A program made the position numbers and the translations under genes. A DNA stretch of 64,000 nucleotides from a phage, in sequence record PZ212788.1. One strand, 5' to 3'. The notes below the pieces were generated by a model. The model did no database searches. It saw only the letters and a program-made list of their open reading frames with translations, and was not told the origin of the DNA. Of this stretch, positions 24,649 to 40,713 are shown one piece after another. Positions within the stretch are counted from its first letter, which is position 1. Every line of letters begins with the position of its first letter.

Positions 24649-26025
24649 ATGCCATATTTAGATAAAGTGGTAGATGTTACAGTTAACCTCGGAACCCAGC
24701 CTATTGACACTGTAGGTTTCGAAACTCCCCTGTTCATCGCTATCCACAACAACTTTACTGAGCGAGCTCGCGTATATGCAGAGCTGGATCAGATGGTGGA
24801 AGATGGTTTCGCACAAGGCTCTGCAGCGTATGAGTTTGCAGCAAAAGCTTTTGGTGGTGTATTCCCTCCACAATACGTTATGATCGGCAGACAGGCCAAA
24901 GAAAAGACAACTGTAGATTTTAAAGGTATTGCTGCCGCAGCTGATACCGATGTCGTAATGACTATTGCAAAAGGTAGCTACAATACTTCTTTGATAGTGC
25001 CTATCTCTGGTGGAACAGGTGCAACTCAGATTGCAGAGTCAATGAAGACTAAAATTGAAGCAGATGATAGCTTGAACGATATCACTGTAGAGGCTTCTGA
25101 AGGTGTTCTCACCATCACTGGTGACTGTACTGTTGGTTACCATACTGGTAACTATACAATCAAAAATATCGCCAATGCTGAAAAACCTTCTACAGTAGTT
25201 GATAAGATCAATGCTGAGCGTGACAATTGGTACTTCCTGTGCCATGAAGACCACACCGACATTGAAGCATGTGCTAAGTGGGCTCAGGCTAACTACAAGC
25301 TGCATGTCTACTCTACTGCAGAAGATGTGACTGGTAAAGATAATAACATCGCCACCAAACTGAAAGCTGCACAATATGACAGTGTCGGCATGTACGATCC
25401 TCGTGCAGATAAGGACTTCCCGGAGGGTGGTATCATAGGTGCTATGGCATCCAACGATCCGTCTTACGGCGACAGCTTGCACTTAAAACAGATGCCAGGT
25501 GTGATTGCACCATCTCTGACTTTAACTCAGCGTATGGCTATTTGGGAAAACCACGTTAACTTCTACAGAATGATTAACGGTGTTGGCGCTTTCTGGGAAG
25601 GCAAGTGTGCTTCAGGTCAGTATGCAGACGCTATTCGTTTTGCACACTGGATCAAGTTCAGATCTGAAGAATCCATGTTTGGGTACATGCATCGTCGCTC
25701 TAATATGGGTTTAAGCATGAAGATGTCTGATGATGATCTTCCGGTTATCAAGTCTGTTCTGATGAACAACCCGATCAATACTGGCATTAAGAATGGCGCG
25801 ATCCTGACAGGTTTTGACGAAGACAACAATGTGTTCTACGACCCGATCATCACAGTTCCTAAACGTGCAGAGATTCCAACCAATCAGTTGGCTGCTCGTG
25901 TTCTGGAAGGTGTGAAAGTAGAACTGGTGTATAACAACGCCCTGCACTTCGTTCGTATCCGGATCAACGTCCTTCTGGACAAAGTTGGTTCTAAATCTAC
26001 CAATGCTGTTGCAATGACTGAATAA
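24649..26025 (+). CDS. tail sheath protein (putative)
   Basis: 458 aa, biased codon usage, followed by 157-aa tube-like gene, chaperone with frameshift, tape measure and baseplate spike. Confidence 0.5.
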   Translation: MPYLDKVVDVTVNLGTQPIDTVGFETPLFIAIHNNFTERARVYAELDQMVEDGFAQGSAAYEFAAKAFGGVFPPQYVMIGRQAKEKTTVDFKGIAAAADTDVVMTIAKGSYNTSLIVPISGGTGATQIAESMKTKIEADDSLNDITVEASEGVLTITGDCTVGYHTGNYTIKNIANAEKPSTVVDKINAERDNWYFLCHEDHTDIEACAKWAQANYKLHVYSTAEDVTGKDNNIATKLKAAQYDSVGMYDPRADKDFPEGGIIGAMASNDPSYGDSLHLKQMPGVIAPSLTLTQRMAIWENHVNFYRMINGVGAFWEGKCASGQYADAIRFAHWIKFRSEESMFGYMHRRSNMGLSMKMSDDDLPVIKSVLMNNPINTGIKNGAILTGFDEDNNVFYDPIITVPKRAEIPTNQLAARVLEGVKVELVYNNALHFVRIRINVLLDKVGSKSTNAVAMTE

Positions 26026-26035
26026 GGAAGCCTAG

Positions 26036-26509
26036 ATGGAAACTCAAATTTTAACTCCTTATGCGTATGACCCTAAAAAGGTCAAACTGTATCTGATGCA
26101 GCAGCGTGTCACTGGCTTCGCTGCTGACACCAAGATTGTTGTTTCAAGAAACGAAGACAACATTTATCCTCACGTCGGTGTGGATGGTGAAATGTCTGCG
26201 GCTCTGTCCCGTAACCAATCCGGTGTTATGACTGTATCTTTGCAGAACACTTCTGTATGGAACGCTTACCTTTCTGACTGGCAGAAACAGGCATCTATTA
26301 CTGGCCTGGTATTCTTCCCGGTTCTGCTGGAAGGTAGCCAGGGCCCTGGTATTTCCACAATCGGTTGGATCCAGAAACAGCCTGACCTGACTTACGGAAC
26401 CGAAGTAGGTCAACTGGACTGGGATATCGGTATTCTGGATGCATGGCTCAACCGTGATAACATCACTGGTGCTCTTACTGGCCTCGCAGGTCTTGCAGGT
26501 ATTATCTAA
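26036..26509 (+). CDS. tail tube protein (putative)
   Basis: 157 aa immediately after sheath candidate, followed by strong terminator. Confidence 0.5.
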   Translation: METQILTPYAYDPKKVKLYLMQQRVTGFAADTKIVVSRNEDNIYPHVGVDGEMSAALSRNQSGVMTVSLQNTSVWNAYLSDWQKQASITGLVFFPVLLEGSQGPGISTIGWIQKQPDLTYGTEVGQLDWDIGILDAWLNRDNITGALTGLAGLAGII

Positions 26510-26527
26510 GGGCACACTTTAGCATAA

Positions 26528-26556
26528 GCCTCACCTTCGGGTGGGGCTTTTTGCTT
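26528..26556 (+). terminator. rho-independent terminator
   Basis: GCCTCACC-TTCG-GGTGGGGC hairpin followed by TTTTT. Confidence 0.65.
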
Positions 26557-26599
26557 TTATGGTTTTGACACACGTTCTTGAATTGCTTGAAAGGTTAAA

Positions 26600-26628
26600 T
26601 TGACAATGCACCATAATCATGGTAAAAT
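26600..26628 (+). promoter_or_regulatory. sigma70-like promoter TTGACA-N17-TAAAAT (extended -10 TGg), flanked by inverted repeat ATGCACCAT/ATGGTGCA
   Basis: Consensus -35, 17-nt spacer, TGGTAAAATAC motif. Confidence 0.55.
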
Positions 26629-26671
26629 ACACAAATATGGTGCACAACATGACTAATAAGGATGCTATAAA

Positions 26672-27145
26672 ATGGCTATAAACTTTAGACCTACAACAGA
26701 GATTGATTTAGCAGGGCACAACTTTGTGATCACCCACTGGGGACCGATGAAAGCAATGAAAAACATGCCCAAAATCGGTAAGATTGTGGCTGTCCCGCTA
26801 GGTGCTATCGGTGGATCTATTATCTCTGGTGGTCAGAATATGGCAGAGGTCCTTCCTACTGCTCTGGCTTACCTGTTCCAAGAACTTGATGACAGCTCTA
26901 TTGAAGAGTTATTTAAAATCTTGTTCGAAGATATTACCGTAGATGGCGTGGATAAGCTTAACCCGGATGTTGTGTTTGCAGGGCATCTGCTGGAGATGAT
27001 TAAGCTGGCAGGTAAGGTTCTGGAGGTTAACTACGGCTGTTTTTTCACACAAGACGGTTTAGGAAGCCTTCTGGAGATGTTACAGCAGATGGGTATGATT
27101 CAGCAGGTGAACAACCTGGATCAGACTCCGGAAGAGCAGGAATAA
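26672..27145 (+). CDS. tail assembly chaperone
   Basis: Acidic 157-aa protein directly upstream of tape measure; contains slippery heptamer near 3' end. Confidence 0.55.
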   Translation: MAINFRPTTEIDLAGHNFVITHWGPMKAMKNMPKIGKIVAVPLGAIGGSIISGGQNMAEVLPTALAYLFQELDDSSIEELFKILFEDITVDGVDKLNPDVVFAGHLLEMIKLAGKVLEVNYGCFFTQDGLGSLLEMLQQMGMIQQVNNLDQTPEEQE

Positions 27146-27405
27146 GCAAGGTTGTTGTGAGGGCCAGTGAGTGGGCAGCTAAGAACAGTTCACTCAACTG
27201 GTTCGACTTTCTTTGGTGCAGGGTGCTCAAGAATTTCAAAGGGGAAAATTTTGAATCGCTAAATCTTGCAGATATGGCGTATTTCCTGAAGCTCTGTGAG
27301 TATCTTGATATCGAAGAATTCCTAGATACCGTCCAAAACAGGGAAATGGAGCGGGAGCAGAAGGCTGCCGCAGCTGCTGCGAAAGCTAAGCGCAGGAGAG
27401 GATAA
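26672..27405 (+). CDS. tail assembly chaperone, predicted -1 frameshift extension product
   Basis: Zero-frame T_TTT_TTC at 27040-27046; -1 frame is open from 27031 to stop at 27405, ending 55 nt before tape measure start. Confidence 0.45.
27040..27046 (+). other. candidate -1 programmed ribosomal frameshift slippery heptamer T_TTT_TTC
   Basis: X_XXY_YYZ heptamer in zero frame of chaperone ORF; -1 frame continues to 27405. Confidence 0.45.
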
Positions 27406-27459
27406 TCTAAGGGCCGGATTCCTTTTCTGGGATCTGGTCCTTTTTATTATGAGGAAACC

Positions 27460-29796
27460 ATGGCTACAAACAAAATAGTTGCCACAACAGTCAACAAGAT
27501 TGGCTTTGAGATAGAGAACTCCTCCTACAAAAAAGCTGTAGAGAAAATTCGCAGTATTGGGAGGGAGTTCAGGAAACTGGGCGAAGATTTTAACTCAGCC
27601 AACCCCATGAGCAGATGGCAGGCGGTAGCTGTTAAAACCCAGCAGACAATGCAGCGGGTTGCCAGACAGCAATCTCAGGCAAATGCTAAGCTGCACAGGG
27701 AGAGCGTAGCACAGGCCAAGAAAGAGGCTGCAGTAAAGGCTGCAATAGAGCGTAGGGAGAATGCAAGACGTAGGCAAGCTGTAGGCAATCTTACCGCTAA
27801 AAATCCAGAAATGGCTAGGATGCGTAAGTTCTACCAGCAGCAAGCTAAAGAGGCCAAAAAGGCTGCCAAATCTGCACCAGTGTCTTACGGCGGTTATAAG
27901 GCACCTAAGGCAAGAGTTCTGGCTAATGCCAAAGCTTTCAAATATATCCCCGGTAACCCTAATATGGGTGGTGTGGCTTCCGACCCTAACCTTGTAAAAG
28001 CTCAGACAGCTGCTATGAATCGTTATCATAGACAGCTAAGAAGGGACGGTAAAGCTGGTATGGATAATAGACTTATGTCGGATCGTGAGGCAAGAAGAAC
28101 CCACCTCTACAACTCCGCGATAAGACTTTCTGCCAAGTATGGGGCCGGATTCCGTGGAAGCTTGCCAGGATACTCAGAGTTAGAGTCCAGGTTTGCTCGC
28201 GGGGAGATGAAAAAGTCAACCTTTAACGCCCACCTATCAGCGCTGCAGTCCGGATTTAAAAGTGCCACCAGCCAAACGCTTACACTAGGCGATGCCATGA
28301 GAGATTTACGTAGATCTGTTATTAATGCAACAGCTGCGTATACAGCTTTTTCTGGATTTGCTGCGGTTAACAGATCCGGTCACATGATGGAGGGGGCAAG
28401 TGCTGCTCTTACTGCTGTTACTGGAGATCCAAACAAAGCTAACAGTGAGGTTGCGTTTGTCCAGCAAGAGGCTATGCGTCTTGGTTTTGATCTCAAATCT
28501 GGTCTTCAAGGTTACGCCCAGATGTCGGTAAACGCCAAAAACCAGATGACAAATCAGGAAGTGCATGAGCTGTTTTCTGCATACTCCCAGTATGCTGCTG
28601 CTTATGGTGCCGATGAGGTAAAATACCAGCGCGGTATTATGGCAATCCAGCAAATGCTCGGTAAAGGGCAAGTAATGTCCGAAGAACTGAAGCAACAACT
28701 TGCTGAAGCATTGCCTGGTGCATACGAACCTTTTATCAAGGCCACCAAAGAGGCTTTTGGTCTTTCTGAACTCTCCATGGATCAGTTCATGGACATGATG
28801 AAGAAAGGTGAGGTTAAAACAGCCAAGATCATGAAGTATGTGGCTAAGTACATGAACGAGGCATCTGCAGCTGGTTATGAAAGAATGCAGAAGTCTAACG
28901 TGCTGGCAGAAAACAGACTGAAAACCTTCATCGAACTGACTCGTCAGAAACTGTTCACCCGTTGGTCTGACGAACTAACAGAGTTCTATTATACACTGAT
29001 CCGCACGGGTGAGACTCTGCAATTTGTGTGGGATGCCTCTGGTGATTTTGTTAGCGGGTTTGTGAGAGGCCTTAACTGGGTAGTTGGTGAACTAAACAAC
29101 ACTATAGTCAAGATCCGCATGTTTTTCCTTGAATGGGGGATTAAATGGGGGTTCATAACAGCCAAGACGAAGGAATATTCTGAAGAGCTTCATGACACCT
29201 TTAGCTATGCTAAATGGGCAGGGTTTGCTGCTGCCATCATGCTGGTCGTCAACGCCCTAACAAAAGGTTTTGTCATGGCATCTATGCTTGTAAAAACCTT
29301 TAAATTCCTTAACTCTCTAAGGGGTGCAGCTGGAGCAGCGGGTGCCGCTACTACAGAAGGATCTGGTGGTGGAGCTCCGGCAGGAAAAGGTGGAGGTGGC
29401 CTCAAGACACCTGGTGGCAAAGTTGGTCTGCTCGGTAAGCTGGGCATTATCGGTACAATACTAAGCGCCGGGGAATTATTTAATGACCGTTACAACCCAC
29501 TAAGTGAAAGAAATCAGCAGCTGGATACTATCAGCGATATGATTCGCAAAGATATCATATCGGGAGGTAACGGGTTTGTTAATCCTTTGGACACCTTACC
29601 GGGCGGGACTCTTCCGTTGCCGGGTGGCCCTGGTTTTGCTTCTCAATTAAGAACTATGGAAATGCTACCTTTAGAGATCAGTGATGGGAAAATCACGATT
29701 TCAATAGATGAGGGTGAGTTTAACAAAATATTTGATGCAAAACTTGAGTGGGAGAACAATAAAGATATCAACTTCATGTCTACCGACCTTTGGTAA
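27460..29796 (+). CDS. tail tape measure protein
   Basis: 778 aa, alpha-helical with Gly-rich segment, directly after chaperone pair. Confidence 0.7.
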   Translation: MATNKIVATTVNKIGFEIENSSYKKAVEKIRSIGREFRKLGEDFNSANPMSRWQAVAVKTQQTMQRVARQQSQANAKLHRESVAQAKKEAAVKAAIERRENARRRQAVGNLTAKNPEMARMRKFYQQQAKEAKKAAKSAPVSYGGYKAPKARVLANAKAFKYIPGNPNMGGVASDPNLVKAQTAAMNRYHRQLRRDGKAGMDNRLMSDREARRTHLYNSAIRLSAKYGAGFRGSLPGYSELESRFARGEMKKSTFNAHLSALQSGFKSATSQTLTLGDAMRDLRRSVINATAAYTAFSGFAAVNRSGHMMEGASAALTAVTGDPNKANSEVAFVQQEAMRLGFDLKSGLQGYAQMSVNAKNQMTNQEVHELFSAYSQYAAAYGADEVKYQRGIMAIQQMLGKGQVMSEELKQQLAEALPGAYEPFIKATKEAFGLSELSMDQFMDMMKKGEVKTAKIMKYVAKYMNEASAAGYERMQKSNVLAENRLKTFIELTRQKLFTRWSDELTEFYYTLIRTGETLQFVWDASGDFVSGFVRGLNWVVGELNNTIVKIRMFFLEWGIKWGFITAKTKEYSEELHDTFSYAKWAGFAAAIMLVVNALTKGFVMASMLVKTFKFLNSLRGAAGAAGAATTEGSGGGAPAGKGGGGLKTPGGKVGLLGKLGIIGTILSAGELFNDRYNPLSERNQQLDTISDMIRKDIISGGNGFVNPLDTLPGGTLPLPGGPGFASQLRTMEMLPLEISDGKITISIDEGEFNKIFDAKLEWENNKDINFMSTDLW

Positions 29797-29807
29797 TAAA
29801 CTGTGCA

Positions 29808-36900: not shown

Positions 36901-39900
36901 ATGGCTGATATTAAAGTTGTCAGAATTGAATCTCTTCCTGCCACTACCGCAGTGACAGAGGATGATTACCTGGTTGTTCAACAACCAGACCTGACTCGTC
37001 GTGTAAAAATTGGCGATGTTGTCCATGTGGATGGGACTGTTTCTCATGTAATCTCCTTTAAGGAAGGTGGTAAGTTAAACGGCCCAATGGATTTTGCCTA
37101 CTTCGAAGAGGAAGACCTCTACCTGCGTTGGAAAGGCGAATTTCCACACACTGTTCCTGCACTGTCTTCACCGTACTCCGATGGTGGGATTACTGACGCT
37201 GCATGGATGGTATATACAGATCCGTCCTTAAGGGAGGAGCTGGAATCTACTATTGGCGCATCTATGATCATGACAGCCGAAGGGCAGTCTGTCCAGGATG
37301 TGATGGATGTTACGGTTCAGACAGCTAACGATGCTAAAGCACTTGCACAGCGGGTAGATTTTGGTACAGTACATACTGTAGGCGATGTTATTCACCTTGT
37401 CAACTTTGTGGGTCCTGCAGTTATTGAGGAGGGAAGAACCACCAACTACCCTTCCGTAGCAGCTGGTGAAAGATTTCTGAACGGTGTGGTATCTCGTCGT
37501 GATACTACAACTGTTGATGGTATTTTCCGTGGCGCTACCACCGGAGCCATGTACACCATTGCAGTAACCAACGGTGTAGCAACAACGAAAAGAATAGCAC
37601 TTCGTGATGAATTTAAACGCCTAGAGGCAAACAACCCAACAAGAACAGTTATCCGTGCTGGAGATGATTTAAATACGGCAGGGTACTTGCAGCTTGATGC
37701 AACAGGCCGTTGGGGTATGTGGAACCAACAAACAGCTTCGTGGCAACCTCTTGCTATAGAGCAAGGCGGCACAGGGGCTAGAGATGCCGCTGGAGTCCGT
37801 ATCAATATCGGTGCTTTCTATAAGCAACGTGCAGCCCTTGAGCCAAATTTCAATATCAATAACTTGACTGGTAATCAGGATGGTGTATACTATCAGCCAA
37901 TGACTGCTTATGCAACTGAGGCGAATGGTTACCCTGCAGGTTCTGGTGCGGGTCACTTGATTGTTTGGCAGAACAATGCTAACGGCGGTACAGGTTGTCG
38001 TCAGGAATACTATCCATTCTCTAACGTAGATGTTTGGTATTTGAGAACCTATCAGGCCAACACAAATCAGTGGACTGCATGGCAGCCGATGGTCAGACCT
38101 CGTAACGATGATACCTTCAGATCTCATATTGGCCTTGGTAAAAACAACTCGCCAGCCTTCGGGCACCTTTACTTAGCTCAATACTCGGGAGATGTTAAAT
38201 CGGCCTCAGGTATTCTCCATGGAGATAAATATAATACTGACGGTGTCCTTGAGCATGGATATAGGATCTATTCTGAGGTAAGAAACGACAATAAGGCTTG
38301 GTTGACAATCCACCTGCACAAAGGCGCAAAAGGATCTGAAACTCATAGATATTTAGGCTTCCGTGAGGATGGGGTCTTAGATTGTCCTAAATATATGCAG
38401 GTTGGTGATCTGAACGGTCAGATGGCAAACTGGGGACTTGGAGAATGGATCCGCAGTTCAGGAGCAGAAAGAGGTTTCTGGGGATCTAAGAAAGCCGCCA
38501 AGATGGTCATCTGGGATGGCGGTATGGACGAGCAAGGTGAAGGAACGCTTGAGTGGGGTGTTTATAACAACCGGAAAGCCAAATGGGAACCACTACCGAT
38601 AGCTTGTGGTGGTACCAGTGCCAGGACTGTAGGGGATGCTCAAGCACAATTCAGAATCCCTCTGGCAGCAGGTGCTAGACCATATGTAAACCTGCCTAGA
38701 ACTGCAGCTATGCAGGACGGTAAGTATTATCCTATTATCGTCAGAACTGACCCCAACTTTGCAGCAACTATCGGGACAGATTTAACCATTGTCACCAGAT
38801 CTTCTTCTGGCGGCGACCCAATGAACTGTGCTACACTACAGTGTCACTACAGAACTGGTGGCTGGACAGACAGAGGTGATTCTTTCCAAGGGGTTATTAA
38901 TTTCTACCAAAACGAGAAAGCAATCCTCGGATGTGTATCTCCAACCAGAGGTAAGCAGGAGTATGTTGCATTCTATGTAGAGGCACGTGCATTCCCTGTT
39001 ACAGTATATGCTGGCGCTACTGTAATAGAAGTGTCAACCAGGGAGGCTGATTGGCAGGTAGGCAACGTGACAGGTAACCAAGATGGTGTCAAGTTCTGTG
39101 CTCCTCTGGAATCTGCAGATTTGAGTCTTGCAATCAAAGGTGATGATGTAACAAACACCAGACCTCTGGTTGAGTTCAAAGGAACATCAGGTTTCTACAC
39201 TGGTGGTGGAACTATGTGGCACTACCTGGGGACTCCTGAACGCTATGCAGTGATGAGCAAAATGAACATGCCTAAAGTCGAGCTTTGGGCAGACGGTATT
39301 GACTACATTTGTCCTGGTAGTCAGACCACTAGAAAAGCACTGTTCTCTAACGCAGGGTTCCAAGCTGCATCGGAAGGAACAGAGGATCTGATCAACAACA
39401 CCTTTACCTCTAAATGTGGTAATGGTGCAAGACTGCAAGGCCAGGCAGAGTTCAGATCTACTCCGGAAGCTGGTCAAGTTATCGTTCGCGATGTTGTAGG
39501 TACAGCTCATAAGTTCTACAATTTCAACAAAGACGGCACATTTTTCCCTCCTGGAGGCTATGTTTGCCAGACAGGTGCTGACTGGAACAATCAGTTTGGT
39601 AATACAAACCCCTCCAAGATAATGGCTGGCAATGTCAACGGGCCGGAAGGTTCGATGGTTGTTGGTGGACTGTCTGTGGCGTTTTCTGGAAACTATGCTT
39701 TCCAAATGGCTGGTCGCCTTGATCAGTTATACACTAGGTCTATCGAAGGTGGTAACCATAGGGCATGGAACAAGGTTATTCAGCACCGTGGTCAAGGTCT
39801 GGGGACAGAAGACCTTAATGCCTACGATGGTAGCCGTGAAGGTTTCTATCACCAGGGTTCAAACGCTGACGCACTTGTAACAGATCGTCACTACCCTGCT

Positions 39901-40713
39901 CCGTACGCTGGTACACTGCTTGTTTACAAAAACACAGCTAACAGACCTCAAGGTTGTGTGCAGGAATATATCACCTATTTTGGTGACAGATATACTCGTG
40001 CTGGTAACTACGTTGGCGATGTCTTTACTTGGGAAGAATGGAGACACGATGCTGGTAAGGGCATCCAGTTAAGACCTAATTACACTTTTGGTGAAACCAG
40101 TAATCAACTGGAAATTCATATCGGTGCTAATGGTCTTCCCTCCAACGCAGATGGCTTACCTAAGGATGATGCTGTACTCCATTATTGGGGTAACGGCAGC
40201 ACAGGGGATCGTCCAAACGTGTTAGAGTTTAAGGTTCGTGACGAGTCTCAAGCAAATTGGGTATGGCATTGCGGTACCTTGCCGGATAAATCAAGATATC
40301 TTTCTGTAAACGGTGCTGTGAATTGCACATCTGTCAATCAGAGTTCTGACAGAGACCTGAAAGATAACATAGCTGTTATTCCTGATGCGTTAGAAGCTAT
40401 CCGGAAGATGAAGGGTTATACTTACACTCTTAAAGAGAACGGTATGCCTTATGCAGGTGTTATAGCACAAGAGGTGCTTGAAGCGCTGCCGGAAGCAGTT
40501 AGCTCTTTCGTGCAAAGAAAGGAAATCCCAAACCCTGATCAGGATGGAACTCCTTTAGTAACAGAGGAAAGATTCTACAGCGTGGATTACGCAGCCGTAA
40601 CAGGCTTGCTTGTCCAGGTTTGCAGGGAACAGGACGATAAAATAACCGCCCTTGAGGAGCAGGTTAAAAAATTGACAGAGGTTGTTACTGGGTTGCAAGA
40701 GAAACTTAAGTAA
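36901..40713 (+). CDS. tail fibre protein with C-terminal intramolecular chaperone domain
   Basis: 1270 aa; C-terminus SDRDLKDNIAV...GVIAQEVLEALPEAV...EERFYSVDYAAVTGLL matches auto-cleaving chaperone domain of endosialidase/long tail fibres. Confidence 0.7.
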   Translation: MADIKVVRIESLPATTAVTEDDYLVVQQPDLTRRVKIGDVVHVDGTVSHVISFKEGGKLNGPMDFAYFEEEDLYLRWKGEFPHTVPALSSPYSDGGITDAAWMVYTDPSLREELESTIGASMIMTAEGQSVQDVMDVTVQTANDAKALAQRVDFGTVHTVGDVIHLVNFVGPAVIEEGRTTNYPSVAAGERFLNGVVSRRDTTTVDGIFRGATTGAMYTIAVTNGVATTKRIALRDEFKRLEANNPTRTVIRAGDDLNTAGYLQLDATGRWGMWNQQTASWQPLAIEQGGTGARDAAGVRINIGAFYKQRAALEPNFNINNLTGNQDGVYYQPMTAYATEANGYPAGSGAGHLIVWQNNANGGTGCRQEYYPFSNVDVWYLRTYQANTNQWTAWQPMVRPRNDDTFRSHIGLGKNNSPAFGHLYLAQYSGDVKSASGILHGDKYNTDGVLEHGYRIYSEVRNDNKAWLTIHLHKGAKGSETHRYLGFREDGVLDCPKYMQVGDLNGQMANWGLGEWIRSSGAERGFWGSKKAAKMVIWDGGMDEQGEGTLEWGVYNNRKAKWEPLPIACGGTSARTVGDAQAQFRIPLAAGARPYVNLPRTAAMQDGKYYPIIVRTDPNFAATIGTDLTIVTRSSSGGDPMNCATLQCHYRTGGWTDRGDSFQGVINFYQNEKAILGCVSPTRGKQEYVAFYVEARAFPVTVYAGATVIEVSTREADWQVGNVTGNQDGVKFCAPLESADLSLAIKGDDVTNTRPLVEFKGTSGFYTGGGTMWHYLGTPERYAVMSKMNMPKVELWADGIDYICPGSQTTRKALFSNAGFQAASEGTEDLINNTFTSKCGNGARLQGQAEFRSTPEAGQVIVRDVVGTAHKFYNFNKDGTFFPPGGYVCQTGADWNNQFGNTNPSKIMAGNVNGPEGSMVVGGLSVAFSGNYAFQMAGRLDQLYTRSIEGGNHRAWNKVIQHRGQGLGTEDLNAYDGSREGFYHQGSNADALVTDRHYPAPYAGTLLVYKNTANRPQGCVQEYITYFGDRYTRAGNYVGDVFTWEEWRHDAGKGIQLRPNYTFGETSNQLEIHIGANGLPSNADGLPKDDAVLHYWGNGSTGDRPNVLEFKVRDESQANWVWHCGTLPDKSRYLSVNGAVNCTSVNQSSDRDLKDNIAVIPDALEAIRKMKGYTYTLKENGMPYAGVIAQEVLEALPEAVSSFVQRKEIPNPDQDGTPLVTEERFYSVDYAAVTGLLVQVCREQDDKITALEEQVKKLTEVVTGLQEKLK

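What the first reader, a model, noticed from the sequence alone, without database searches (positions are those of the whole stretch)
27031..27405. Candidate -1 programmed frameshift in the tail assembly chaperone
The zero frame of 26672-27145 contains T_TTT_TTC at 27040-27046, and the -1 frame is open from 27031 to a stop at 27405, ending 55 nt before the tape measure start. This reproduces the conserved two-product chaperone arrangement of tailed phages.
Basis: partly seen in the sequence, partly recalled or inferred. Interest (0 to 1): 0.45.

Follow-up and report, generated by a model that had tools for sequence, protein, structure and literature searches.

The report
Tail chaperone frameshift in rV5-like phage
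The window is an rV5-like coliphage whose tail assembly chaperone gene carries a deeply conserved slippery site, so some ribosomes should shift back one base and make a longer second protein; this is the ordinary two-product arrangement of tailed phages, but public records of this phage group do not annotate it.

Summary
In the chaperone ORF 26672-27145, T_TTT_TTC lies in phase at 27040-27046. The -1 frame is open from 27031 to the stop at 27403-27405. Slipping would give a 244-aa, 27.1-kDa fusion beside the 157-aa product.

The window is 98.7% identical to Escherichia phage rV5. The gene lies between the tail tube and tape measure genes and matches Pfam Phage_TAC_15.

In 33 diverged relatives the codon before Phe-Phe always ends in T, whichever amino acid it encodes, and the first Phe codon is always TTT. 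The -1 frame has no stop in 790 codons between the heptamer and the 0-frame stop, against 8.4% upstream. Most lineages have no start codon that could express the downstream part separately. Two relatives use other in-phase heptamers (C_CCT_TTT, G_GGA_AAG), which favours ribosomal over transcriptional slippage.

No conserved downstream RNA structure exists. Instead, a Shine-Dalgarno-like GGAGG/GAGGT sits 12-13 nt upstream and is kept by synonymous codon choice.

Verdict: a real programmed -1 frameshift of the lambda G/GT kind, a new member of a known kind. None of the 21 records inspected annotates it. Nothing is shown at the protein level.

The parts
26526..26549 (+). Terminator-like hairpin after the tail tube gene (rV5 t052). 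It closes the upstream transcription unit.
   Evidence: 10-pair stem followed by a T tract. Listed as t052 in rV5 Table S4.
26600..26628 (+). Sigma-70-type promoter, TTGACA-17-TAAAAT with an upstream TG (rV5 P051). It drives the chaperone unit.
   Evidence: 11 of 12 matches. Annotated in NC_011041 and in rV5 Table S4.
26672..27145 (+). Tail assembly chaperone, zero-frame product: 157 aa, 17.2 kDa (rV5 gp51). This is the G-like short form.
   Evidence: PF21822, aa 15-129; phrog_3840.
27022..27027 (+). Shine-Dalgarno-like GGAGGT, 12-13 nt 5' of the heptamer. Inferred upstream stimulator of the slip.
   Evidence: Read. GGAGG or GAGGT is present at this spacing in 20 of 33 lineage representatives and GGAG in 4 more. 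The Glu codon is GAG in 24 of 27 against a 35% background.
27040..27046 (+). Slippery heptamer T_TTT_TTC in the X_XXY_YYZ phase. Site of the -1 shift.
   Evidence: Invariant NNT TTT TTY in 33 of 33 representatives across four codon families.
27047..27145 (+). Dual-coding overlap of 33 codons. The zero frame gives the conserved C-terminal tail of the short form. The -1 frame gives a basic motif (HTRRFRKP) and then a Gly/Ser/Asp-rich linker.
   Evidence: (0 stops in 790 -1-frame codons across 28 representatives).
27046..27405 (+). The -1 frame part of the fusion: 119 codons plus a TAA stop. With the first 125 zero-frame codons it gives a 244-aa, 27.1-kDa GT-like long form.
27157..27402 (+). Conserved T-like C-terminal domain. 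GenBank records annotate it as a separate hypothetical protein, or (rV5 gp050) as an ORF running from 27037.
   Evidence: phrog_10409, unknown function, aa 38-119 of the -1 part, E = 8.5e-51.. Alignment.
27409..27442 (+). Terminator-like hairpin (rV5 t050), starting 4 nt after the -1 frame stop and lying before the tape measure gene.
   Evidence: 14-pair stem followed by a T tract..
26036..26509 (+). Tail tube protein gene (context).
   Evidence: PF11681. rV5 gp52 was detected in virions.
27460..29796 (+). Tape measure protein gene (context).
   Evidence: PF20155 TMP_3, 67 bits against a cut-off of 41..

Best explanation
This is a programmed -1 ribosomal frameshift in the tail assembly chaperone gene of an rV5-like myovirus. 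Most ribosomes read 26672-27145 and make a 157-aa chaperone. A minority slip back one base while tRNA-Phe molecules occupy UUU (P site) and UUC (A site) of U_UUU_UUC at 27040-27046, and re-pair with UUU UUU. They then read the -1 frame to 27405. The result is a 244-aa protein with the same N-terminal 125 residues, a basic motif, a flexible Gly/Ser/Asp linker and a conserved C-terminal domain of about 80 aa. By analogy with lambda gpG/gpGT, the shared N-domain would coat the tape measure protein and the extra C-domain would recruit the tail tube protein. The slip frequency would fix the ratio of the two forms. The slip is probably helped by pairing of 16S rRNA with an internal Shine-Dalgarno-like GGAGGU 12-13 nt upstream, as in E. 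coli dnaX, and not by a downstream RNA structure. What is shown: the sequence anatomy, its conservation and the selection on it. What is inferred: that slipping actually occurs, its frequency, the role of the SD-like element, and the binding partners.
For: Identity and context: the window is 98.7% identical to phage rV5. The gene order is sheath, tube, chaperone, tape measure, and all four have family matches above their cut-offs.

Heptamer: it is in phase. In 33 lineage representatives, drawn from Vequintavirinae, Stephanstirmvirinae, Ounavirinae, Plateaulakevirus, Myoalterovirus and metagenomic contigs of up to 66% GC, the codon before Phe-Phe ends in T in 33 of 33. That codon is Cys TGT, Ser TCT, Ser AGT or Pro CCT. 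Phe1 is TTT in 33 of 33, and Phe2 is TTC in 31 and TTT in 2. Neighbouring codons vary freely at synonymous sites. For the 29 representatives, the naive codon-usage expectation is 10^-22.7.

Translation of the -1 frame: it has 0 stops in 790 codons between the heptamer and the 0-frame stop, against 280 in 3342 (8.4%) upstream and 5.9% in the +1 frame. The -1 extension is 76-127 codons in all 65 metagenomic loci, and its protein sequence is conserved.

Against independent initiation: 27 of 33 representatives have no ATG, GTG or TTG in the -1 frame between the last -1 stop and the heptamer. The first start after the heptamer sits at unconserved positions, 14-93% of the way into the -1 part.

Ribosomal rather than transcriptional: relatives use other in-phase heptamers. 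KLEP7 has C_CCT_TTT. Rheinheimera Barba18A has G_GGA_AAG a few codons downstream, still followed by the FRxPSG motif.

Published efficiency: H_HH.U_UU.Y heptamers are among the most efficient in E. coli, and SD-like elements 6-17 nt upstream are known stimulators (PMC4066793).

SD-like element: GGAGG or GAGGT lies 12-13 nt upstream in 20 of 33 representatives. The Glu codon there is GAG in 22 of 24 of the representatives tested first, against a 35% background (naive P about 1e-8), and in 24 of 27 of the 33.

Related report: the same GTTTTT frameshift has been argued for the related Vandenendeviridae and Andersonviridae (PMC12846349).

Frames kept apart: all 73 database relatives of the fusion query are 149-159 aa and cover only 50-62% of it.
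Against: There is no protein-level evidence. The rV5 virion mass-spectrometry tables contain no peptide of either form. That is expected for a chaperone but proves nothing.

No downstream stimulatory structure was found, so efficiency may be low.

The metagenomic loci were retrieved with a peptide pattern ending in [CPS]FF. The Phe-Phe itself is therefore ascertained; only the codon choices are free.

The P values treat lineages as independent and are inflated by shared ancestry.

The SD-like element overlaps conserved Leu-Glu-Val codons and is absent or weak in 9 of 33 representatives.

In the window itself, a GTG at 27157 preceded by AAGG could also start an 82-aa protein that contains the conserved domain.
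Confidence: 0.85

Rival explanations
1. Transcriptional slippage. RNA polymerase occasionally adds one extra U while copying the T6 run at 27040-27045. Ordinary translation of that minority mRNA then gives exactly the same 244-aa fusion.
For: The conserved element is a homopolymer, T6 in nearly all relatives. The protein product would be identical, so conservation of the -1 frame does not tell the two mechanisms apart. One GenBank record (phage CL1) carries T7 and so a fused ORF, which shows that length changes in this run do occur or are easily mis-read.
Against: Productive slippage in bacteria is described for runs of about 9 A or T (PMC5009743); this run has 6. Relatives keep the two-frame arrangement with heptamers that are poor polymerase slippage sites but classical ribosomal ones, each in the correct phase: C_CCT_TTT with only 5 T, and G_GGA_AAG. 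The upstream SD-like element, kept by synonymous choice, makes sense only for a translating ribosome.
Confidence: 0.07
2. Independent gene. The downstream frame is a separate small protein started on its own, either at GTG 27157 (82 aa, as annotated in phage Mangalyan) or at CTG 27037 (as in rV5 gp050). The GGAGG would then act as its ribosome binding site.
For: GenBank records annotate it this way. GTG 27157 is preceded by AAGG. GGAGG lies 10 nt before CTG 27037.
Against: Annotated starts differ from phage to phage, and some records annotate nothing there. 27 of 33 lineages lack any canonical start between the last -1 stop and the heptamer; where rV5 has CTG, others have ATC, CAG or CCC. The first start after the heptamer falls at variable positions, often inside or beyond the conserved domain. 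The -1 frame is free of stops and conserved as protein upstream of those starts, right from the heptamer. That would be unnecessary for a separate gene.
Confidence: 0.05
3. Chance. The heptamer and the open -1 frame have no function.
For: In the window alone, an in-phase heptamer in a 38-codon overlap is expected about 0.1 times.
Against: The heptamer is invariant at synonymous sites, the -1 frame is depleted of stops, and its protein sequence is conserved across lineages that share only 25-30% protein identity.
Confidence: 0.01

Closest known systems
Phage lambda gpG / gpGT tail assembly chaperones, and the conserved frameshift of tailed phages (Levin 1993; Xu, Hendrix & Duda 2004; summarised in PMC5009743)
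   Same: The gene pair lies immediately upstream of the tape measure gene. The downstream ORF is in the -1 frame with no start of its own. An in-phase slippery heptamer lies in the overlap. Two products share an N-terminal domain.
   Different: The heptamer is U_UUU_UUC rather than G_GGA_AAG. The slip lies 33 codons before the 0-frame stop, so the short form has its own conserved 32-aa tail. The host virus is a contractile-tailed phage with a tube and sheath. No sequence similarity to gpG or gpT was tested or seen. The product ratio is unknown.
TAC-N / TAC-NC frameshift proposed for Pseudomonas phage Adele and other Vandenendeviridae, and for Andersonviridae (PMC12846349, December 2025)
   Same: [quoted passage not shown] The same uninterrupted -1 frame reaches the tape measure gene. 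The downstream part is likewise mis-annotated as a hypothetical protein. The virion modules are related; the tube here matches the KPP10_Orf10 family.
   Different: That paper analysed other families and did not treat Vequintavirinae loci. The passages read do not mention an upstream SD-like element, and they report no experimental test either.
E. coli dnaX gamma/tau -1 frameshift (own knowledge; upstream SD stimulators are described in PMC4066793)
   Same: An internal Shine-Dalgarno-like sequence lies roughly 10-13 nt 5' of an in-phase heptamer.
   Different: dnaX also has a strong downstream stem-loop, which is absent here. dnaX uses A_AAA_AAG, shifts at about 50% and gives a shorter product; here the shifted product is longer.
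Phage P2 gpE / gpE+E' (myovirus tail chaperone frameshift; own knowledge, not tested here)
   Same: A contractile-tailed phage with a -1 frameshifted chaperone pair between the tube and tape measure genes.
   Different: No sequence relationship was tested, and the slippery sequence and the genome type are different.

Membership tests
G/GT-type tail assembly chaperone with programmed -1 frameshift | The gene lies between the major tail (tube) gene and the tape measure gene. | tested here: met
   Tube 26036-26509, chaperone 26672-27145, tape measure 27460-29796, each with Pfam support. The same order holds in all relatives inspected.
G/GT-type tail assembly chaperone with programmed -1 frameshift | The downstream ORF overlaps the 3' end of the chaperone ORF in the -1 frame and has no conserved start of its own. 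| tested here: met
   The -1 frame is open from 27031 to 27405 with a 115-nt overlap. 27 of 33 lineages lack a canonical start before the heptamer, and later starts are not conserved.
G/GT-type tail assembly chaperone with programmed -1 frameshift | A slippery heptamer X_XXY_YYZ lies in phase inside the overlap. | tested here: met
   T_TTT_TTC at 27040-27046, in phase. It belongs to the efficient H_HH.U_UU.Y class in E. coli (PMC4066793).
G/GT-type tail assembly chaperone with programmed -1 frameshift | The arrangement and the slip site are conserved in diverged homologues beyond what coding requires. | tested here: met
   33 of 33 representatives keep NNT TTT TTY at synonymous sites. There are 0 stops in 790 -1-frame codons. 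Other relatives use alternative in-phase heptamers.
G/GT-type tail assembly chaperone with programmed -1 frameshift | Two proteins are made at a set ratio, both are needed for tail assembly, and neither is in the virion. | not testable with these tools
   The only data are the rV5 virion mass-spectrometry tables, which contain no peptide of either form. This is compatible but not informative.
G/GT-type tail assembly chaperone with programmed -1 frameshift | The shared N-domain binds the tape measure protein and the frameshift-added domain binds the tube protein. | not testable with these tools
   Inferred from lambda (PMC5009743). No solved relative was found by sequence.
Pfam PF21822 Phage_TAC_15 / PHROG 3840 tail assembly chaperone | The score exceeds the family's curated threshold. 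| tested here: met
   83 bits against a cut-off of 22, over aa 15-129, ending at the slip site at aa 125. phrog_3840 E = 6.5e-69. All 73 database relatives carry PF21822.
dnaX-type -1 frameshift signal (5' SD-like element + heptamer + 3' stem-loop) | A Shine-Dalgarno-like sequence lies 6-17 nt upstream of the heptamer and is conserved. | tested here: met
   GGAGGT at 27022-27027. GGAGG or GAGGT is present at 12-13 nt in 20 of 33 representatives. The Glu codon is GAG in 24 of 27 against a 35% background.
dnaX-type -1 frameshift signal (5' SD-like element + heptamer + 3' stem-loop) | A stable downstream stem-loop or pseudoknot lies 5-9 nt after the heptamer. | tested here: not met
   Window folds give z = -0.2 and -1.1. 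RNAalifold on 19 relatives predicts 0 pairs. 11 of 12 single folds have z near 0. There is no Rfam match.
Programmed transcriptional slippage | A homopolymer run long enough for polymerase realignment, about 9 A or T in bacteria. | tested here: not met
   The run is T6 here, T5 in KLEP7 and absent in Barba18A. The criterion comes from PMC5009743.

The most novel reading that the evidence does not exclude
The ancestral frameshift signal of this large clade of myovirus chaperone genes (Vequintavirinae, Stephanstirmvirinae, Ounavirinae and many uncultured relatives) has two parts: an internal Shine-Dalgarno-like GGAGGU(G) held 12-13 nt upstream of U_UUU_UUC by synonymous codon choice, with no downstream RNA structure. 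It would be a widespread natural frameshift signal that uses only a dnaX-like 5' stimulator. The slip also lies unusually far (33 codons) from the 0-frame stop, so both frames of a 99-nt stretch are under selection.
Probability: 0.45. Interest if true: 0.35.

Novelty: new member of a known kind. Interest (0 to 1): 0.27.

Why it matters
The practical value is better annotation. In about 125 rV5-like records and several hundred related phage records, many from phages studied for therapy or biocontrol, the region after the chaperone gene is annotated inconsistently. It appears as a hypothetical protein with varying starts, or as nothing at all. None of the 21 annotated regions inspected shows a joined CDS. 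The region should be annotated as one chaperone gene with two products.

For recoding biology, the locus offers a deeply sampled natural example. The heptamer is held entirely by synonymous choice across four codon families, even in 66% GC genomes. The only detectable stimulator is an upstream SD-like element. That makes it a convenient system for testing 5' stimulators without the complication of a 3' structure. It does not change how tail assembly is understood.

Tried and rejected
1. Downstream stimulatory structure. I made single-sequence folds of 27047-27130 and 27010-27160, 12 relatives folded singly, RNAalifold on 19 relatives and an Rfam scan. Nothing was conserved. A small GGUUU...RRRCC hairpin that I saw by eye was not supported by RNAalifold, and its conservation is explained by coding in both frames.

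2. Phage CL1 as proof of a natural in-frame fusion. Its 213-aa ORF aligns across the predicted junction. However, about 200 other Felixounavirus records have T6 and two frames. CL1's T7 is therefore probably a homopolymer error or a rare variant, and I dropped it as independent evidence.

3. Prior description of the frameshift. The rV5 genome paper mentions neither a frameshift nor a chaperone. Full-text searches for Vequintavirus, Vequintavirinae or Felixounavirus together with frameshift gave only irrelevant hits, apart from the Adele paper on sister families.

4. Proteomic support. No peptide of either form appears in the rV5 supplementary mass-spectrometry tables.

5. Solved structures. 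A profile search of PDB sequences gave only chance hits with E of at least 0.04.

6. Fused homologues in the 5.8-billion-protein collection. None was found; all hits are 149-159 aa.

7. Other candidate sites in the window. The only other in-phase heptamer with a -1 extension is in an antisense ORF (37446-37805, minus strand) inside a 1270-aa + strand gene, and is spurious.

8. Structure prediction of the fusion was not attempted.

Full report
**What the window is.** The region 26000-29800 is 98.7% identical to Escherichia phage rV5 (Vequintavirus), and about 117 further records are 95-99% identical. The local gene order is:
- tail sheath, 24649-26025 (Pfam DUF3383)
- tail tube, 26036-26509 (KPP10_Orf10)
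- a 157-aa ORF, 26672-27145
- an open -1 frame running to 27405
- tape measure protein, 27460-29796 (TMP_3)

The 157-aa protein matches Pfam PF21822 Phage_TAC_15 at 83 bits against a cut-off of 22, over residues 15-129. It also matches PHROG 3840 'tail assembly chaperone' at E = 6.5e-69.

The unit has its own strong promoter (26600-26628). It is bracketed by terminator-like hairpins at 26526-26549 and 27409-27442. These are the P051, t052 and t050 elements of the rV5 paper.

**Checking the observation.**
- The zero frame reads TGT TTT TTC from 27038, so T_TTT_TTC at 27040-27046 is in the X_XXY_YYZ phase.
- The -1 frame has a TAA at 27028-27030 and then stays open to the TAA at 27403-27405.
- The +1 frame is closed.
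- Slipping gives 125 + 119 = 244 aa, 27.1 kDa, beside the 17.2-kDa short form.

Within the window alone the evidence is modest. In-phase heptamers occur at 0.0026 per codon, so about 0.1 is expected in the 38-codon overlap. Even so, this is the only one of 56 + strand ORFs that combines a long -1 overlap with an in-phase heptamer.

**Comparative evidence.** A tblastn search with the predicted fusion found two-piece matches (zero frame, then -1 frame) in 491 phage records, down to about 28% identity. I read representatives of the following groups:

| Group | Representatives |
|---|---|
| Seunavirus | GAP31 |
| Mydovirus | KpS8 |
| Certrevirus | CR3 |
| Unclassified Vequintavirinae | A73 |
| Stephanstirmvirinae | alia, ZCKP1, KP2025 |
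| Plateaulakevirus | Aeromonas 4L372D |
| Unclassified Aeromonas phage | PhAER-3 |
| Pseudaeromonas phage | KLEP7 |
| Barbavirus | Rheinheimera Barba18A |
| Felixounavirus | TP1, CL1 |
| Kolesnikvirus | Panisse |
| Myoalterovirus | PT11-V22 |

I also read 65 IMG/VR loci. All of these have the -1 extension, 76-128 codons long, ending just before the tape measure gene.

After clustering, 33 lineage representatives remain. At the slip site they show:
- The codon preceding Phe-Phe ends in T in 33 of 33, although it encodes Cys (TGT), Ser (TCT or AGT) or Pro (CCT).
- The first Phe codon is TTT in 33 of 33.
- The second Phe codon is TTC in 31 and TTT in 2.

Neighbouring codons vary freely. Leu is CTG 12, CTT 8, CTA 3, TTG 3. 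Tyr is TAC 20, TAT 10. The pattern holds even in 65-66% GC contigs, where TTT makes up only 6-11% of Phe codons. For the 29 representatives, the naive product of codon-usage probabilities is 10^-22.7. Shared ancestry inflates this figure.

One caveat is ascertainment. The IMG/VR loci were retrieved with a peptide pattern ending in [CPS]FF. The Phe-Phe is therefore ascertained, but the codon choices are not.

**Is the -1 frame translated from the heptamer?** In 28 representatives the -1 frame contains 280 stops in 3342 codons (8.4%) upstream of the heptamer. It contains none in the 790 codons between the heptamer and the 0-frame stop. The +1 frame over the same stretch has 5.9% stops.

The -1 protein is conserved from its first residues. 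It has a basic motif (HTRRFRKP, HERRFRRP, RGRRYW, RSKHFQKP), then a variable Gly/Ser/Asp-rich linker, then a domain of about 60-80 aa. That domain matches PHROG 10409, 'unknown function'.

Independent initiation is not conserved:
- 27 of 33 representatives have no ATG, GTG or TTG in the -1 frame between the last -1 stop and the heptamer.
- The first start after the heptamer lies 14-93% of the way into the -1 part, usually without an SD.

GenBank annotations of the downstream ORF differ accordingly. rV5 gp050 runs from CTG 27037, Mangalyan's ORF starts at GTG 27157, KpS8 has a 44-aa fragment, and alia and nom have nothing. In the window itself, GTG 27157 preceded by AAGG cannot be excluded as an additional start.

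**Ribosome or RNA polymerase?** An extra U inserted by the polymerase in the T6 run would give the same protein, so this rival cannot be dismissed from the protein frames alone. Three observations favour the ribosome.
- Relatives retain the two-frame arrangement with other heptamers in the correct phase. KLEP7 has C_CCT_TTT with only five T. Barba18A has the lambda-type G_GGA_AAG four codons further on, with no T run, still followed by FRIPSG.
- Runs reported to support productive slippage in bacteria are about 9 nt (PMC5009743).
- A Shine-Dalgarno-like element is conserved upstream, as described next.

In E. coli, H_HH.U_UU.Y heptamers, which include U_UUU_UUC and C_CCU_UUU, are among the most efficient (PMC4066793).

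**Stimulators.**
- Folds of the window have z = -0.2 and -1.1.
- 11 of 12 relatives fold no better than shuffled sequence.
- RNAalifold on 19 relatives predicts no pair.
- Rfam finds nothing.

Upstream, however, GGAGGT lies at 27022-27027, 12-13 nt before the heptamer.
- GGAGG or GAGGT is present at that spacing in 20 of 33 representatives, and GGAG in 4 more.
- The Glu codon inside it is GAG in 22 of 24 representatives tested first, against a 35% background (naive P about 1e-8), and in 24 of 27 of the 33.
- The following Val codon is GTG in 15 of 21, which extends the match to GGAGGUGA.

SD-like elements 6-17 nt upstream are established stimulators of bacterial -1 frameshifting (PMC4066793). 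Their role here is an inference. The element overlaps conserved Leu-Glu-Val codons and is weak or absent in 9 of 33 representatives.

**Comparison with what is known.** The arrangement meets every computable criterion of the lambda G/GT paradigm (PMC5009743). The same GTTTTT motif and the same reasoning were published in December 2025 for Vandenendeviridae and Andersonviridae, whose virion modules are related to those of Vequintavirinae (PMC12846349).

I found no description of the frameshift for rV5-like phages. None of the 21 annotated regions inspected has a joined CDS. In a 5.8-billion-protein collection, every relative of the fusion query is 149-159 aa and covers only 50-62% of it, so no fused or slippage-annotated product turned up.

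The locus differs from lambda in four ways:
- the heptamer
- the long 33-codon dual-coding overlap, which gives the short form its own conserved tail
- the apparent reliance on a 5' SD-like element
- a separate promoter and terminator for the unit

**Verdict.** This is a real, strongly conserved programmed -1 frameshift site of a textbook kind. It is a new member of a known kind, whose main value is to correct annotation and to offer a clean natural example of a signal that may rely only on a 5' SD-like stimulator. Nothing is demonstrated at the protein level.

Noticed in passing
L013 (OK040806.1, Escherichia phage CL1) 1230-1236: This Felixounavirus record has T7 instead of T6 at the slip site, so the chaperone is annotated as one fused 213-aa ORF. 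About 200 other Felixounavirus records have T6 and two frames. This is probably a homopolymer sequencing error, or a rare variant that would make only the long form.
   Followed up: partly
window 26526-26628 and 27409-27442: The chaperone gene sits in its own small transcription unit, with a terminator after the tube gene, a near-consensus extended -10 promoter, and a terminator between the -1 frame stop and the tape measure gene. The chaperone could therefore be expressed at a level set independently of the tube and tape measure genes.
   Followed up: partly
(GenBank records MG065635, MG065653, MG065689, GU169904): Records named 'Campylobacter phage C12/C14/A110a' are about 98% identical to rV5-like or phi92-like coliphages. 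'Staphylococcus phage SA1' carries a Felixounavirus chaperone at 96% identity. Their host labels look wrong, or the samples were contaminated.
   Followed up: no
L012 (NC_048189.1, Rheinheimera phage Barba18A) 1526-2136, minus strand: An HNH endonuclease gene on the opposite strand lies immediately after the -1 frame stop of the chaperone, where other relatives have the tape measure gene. It looks like a homing-endonuclease insertion between the chaperone and tape measure genes.
   Followed up: no
L007 (OM654377.1, Pseudaeromonas phage KLEP7) 433-1053: The annotated chaperone is 206 aa, about 50 aa longer at the N-terminus than its relatives, so the start may be mis-called. No gene is annotated over the 112-codon -1 extension.
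   Followed up: no
window 37446-37805, minus strand: A 119-aa antisense ORF with an in-phase T_TTA_AAT and a -1 extension lies inside a 1270-aa + strand gene (36901-40713). I judged it spurious.
   Followed up: yes
window 27047-27145; L017-L019: Among near-identical rV5-like contigs, the -1-frame linker varies (DVTADGYDSAGEQPGSDSG, DVATDGYDSAGEQSRSDSG, DVTADGYDPAGEQSGSGSG). In the overlap the linker frame therefore seems to tolerate change better than the zero-frame tail. I did not examine this with a proper dN/dS analysis.
   Followed up: no
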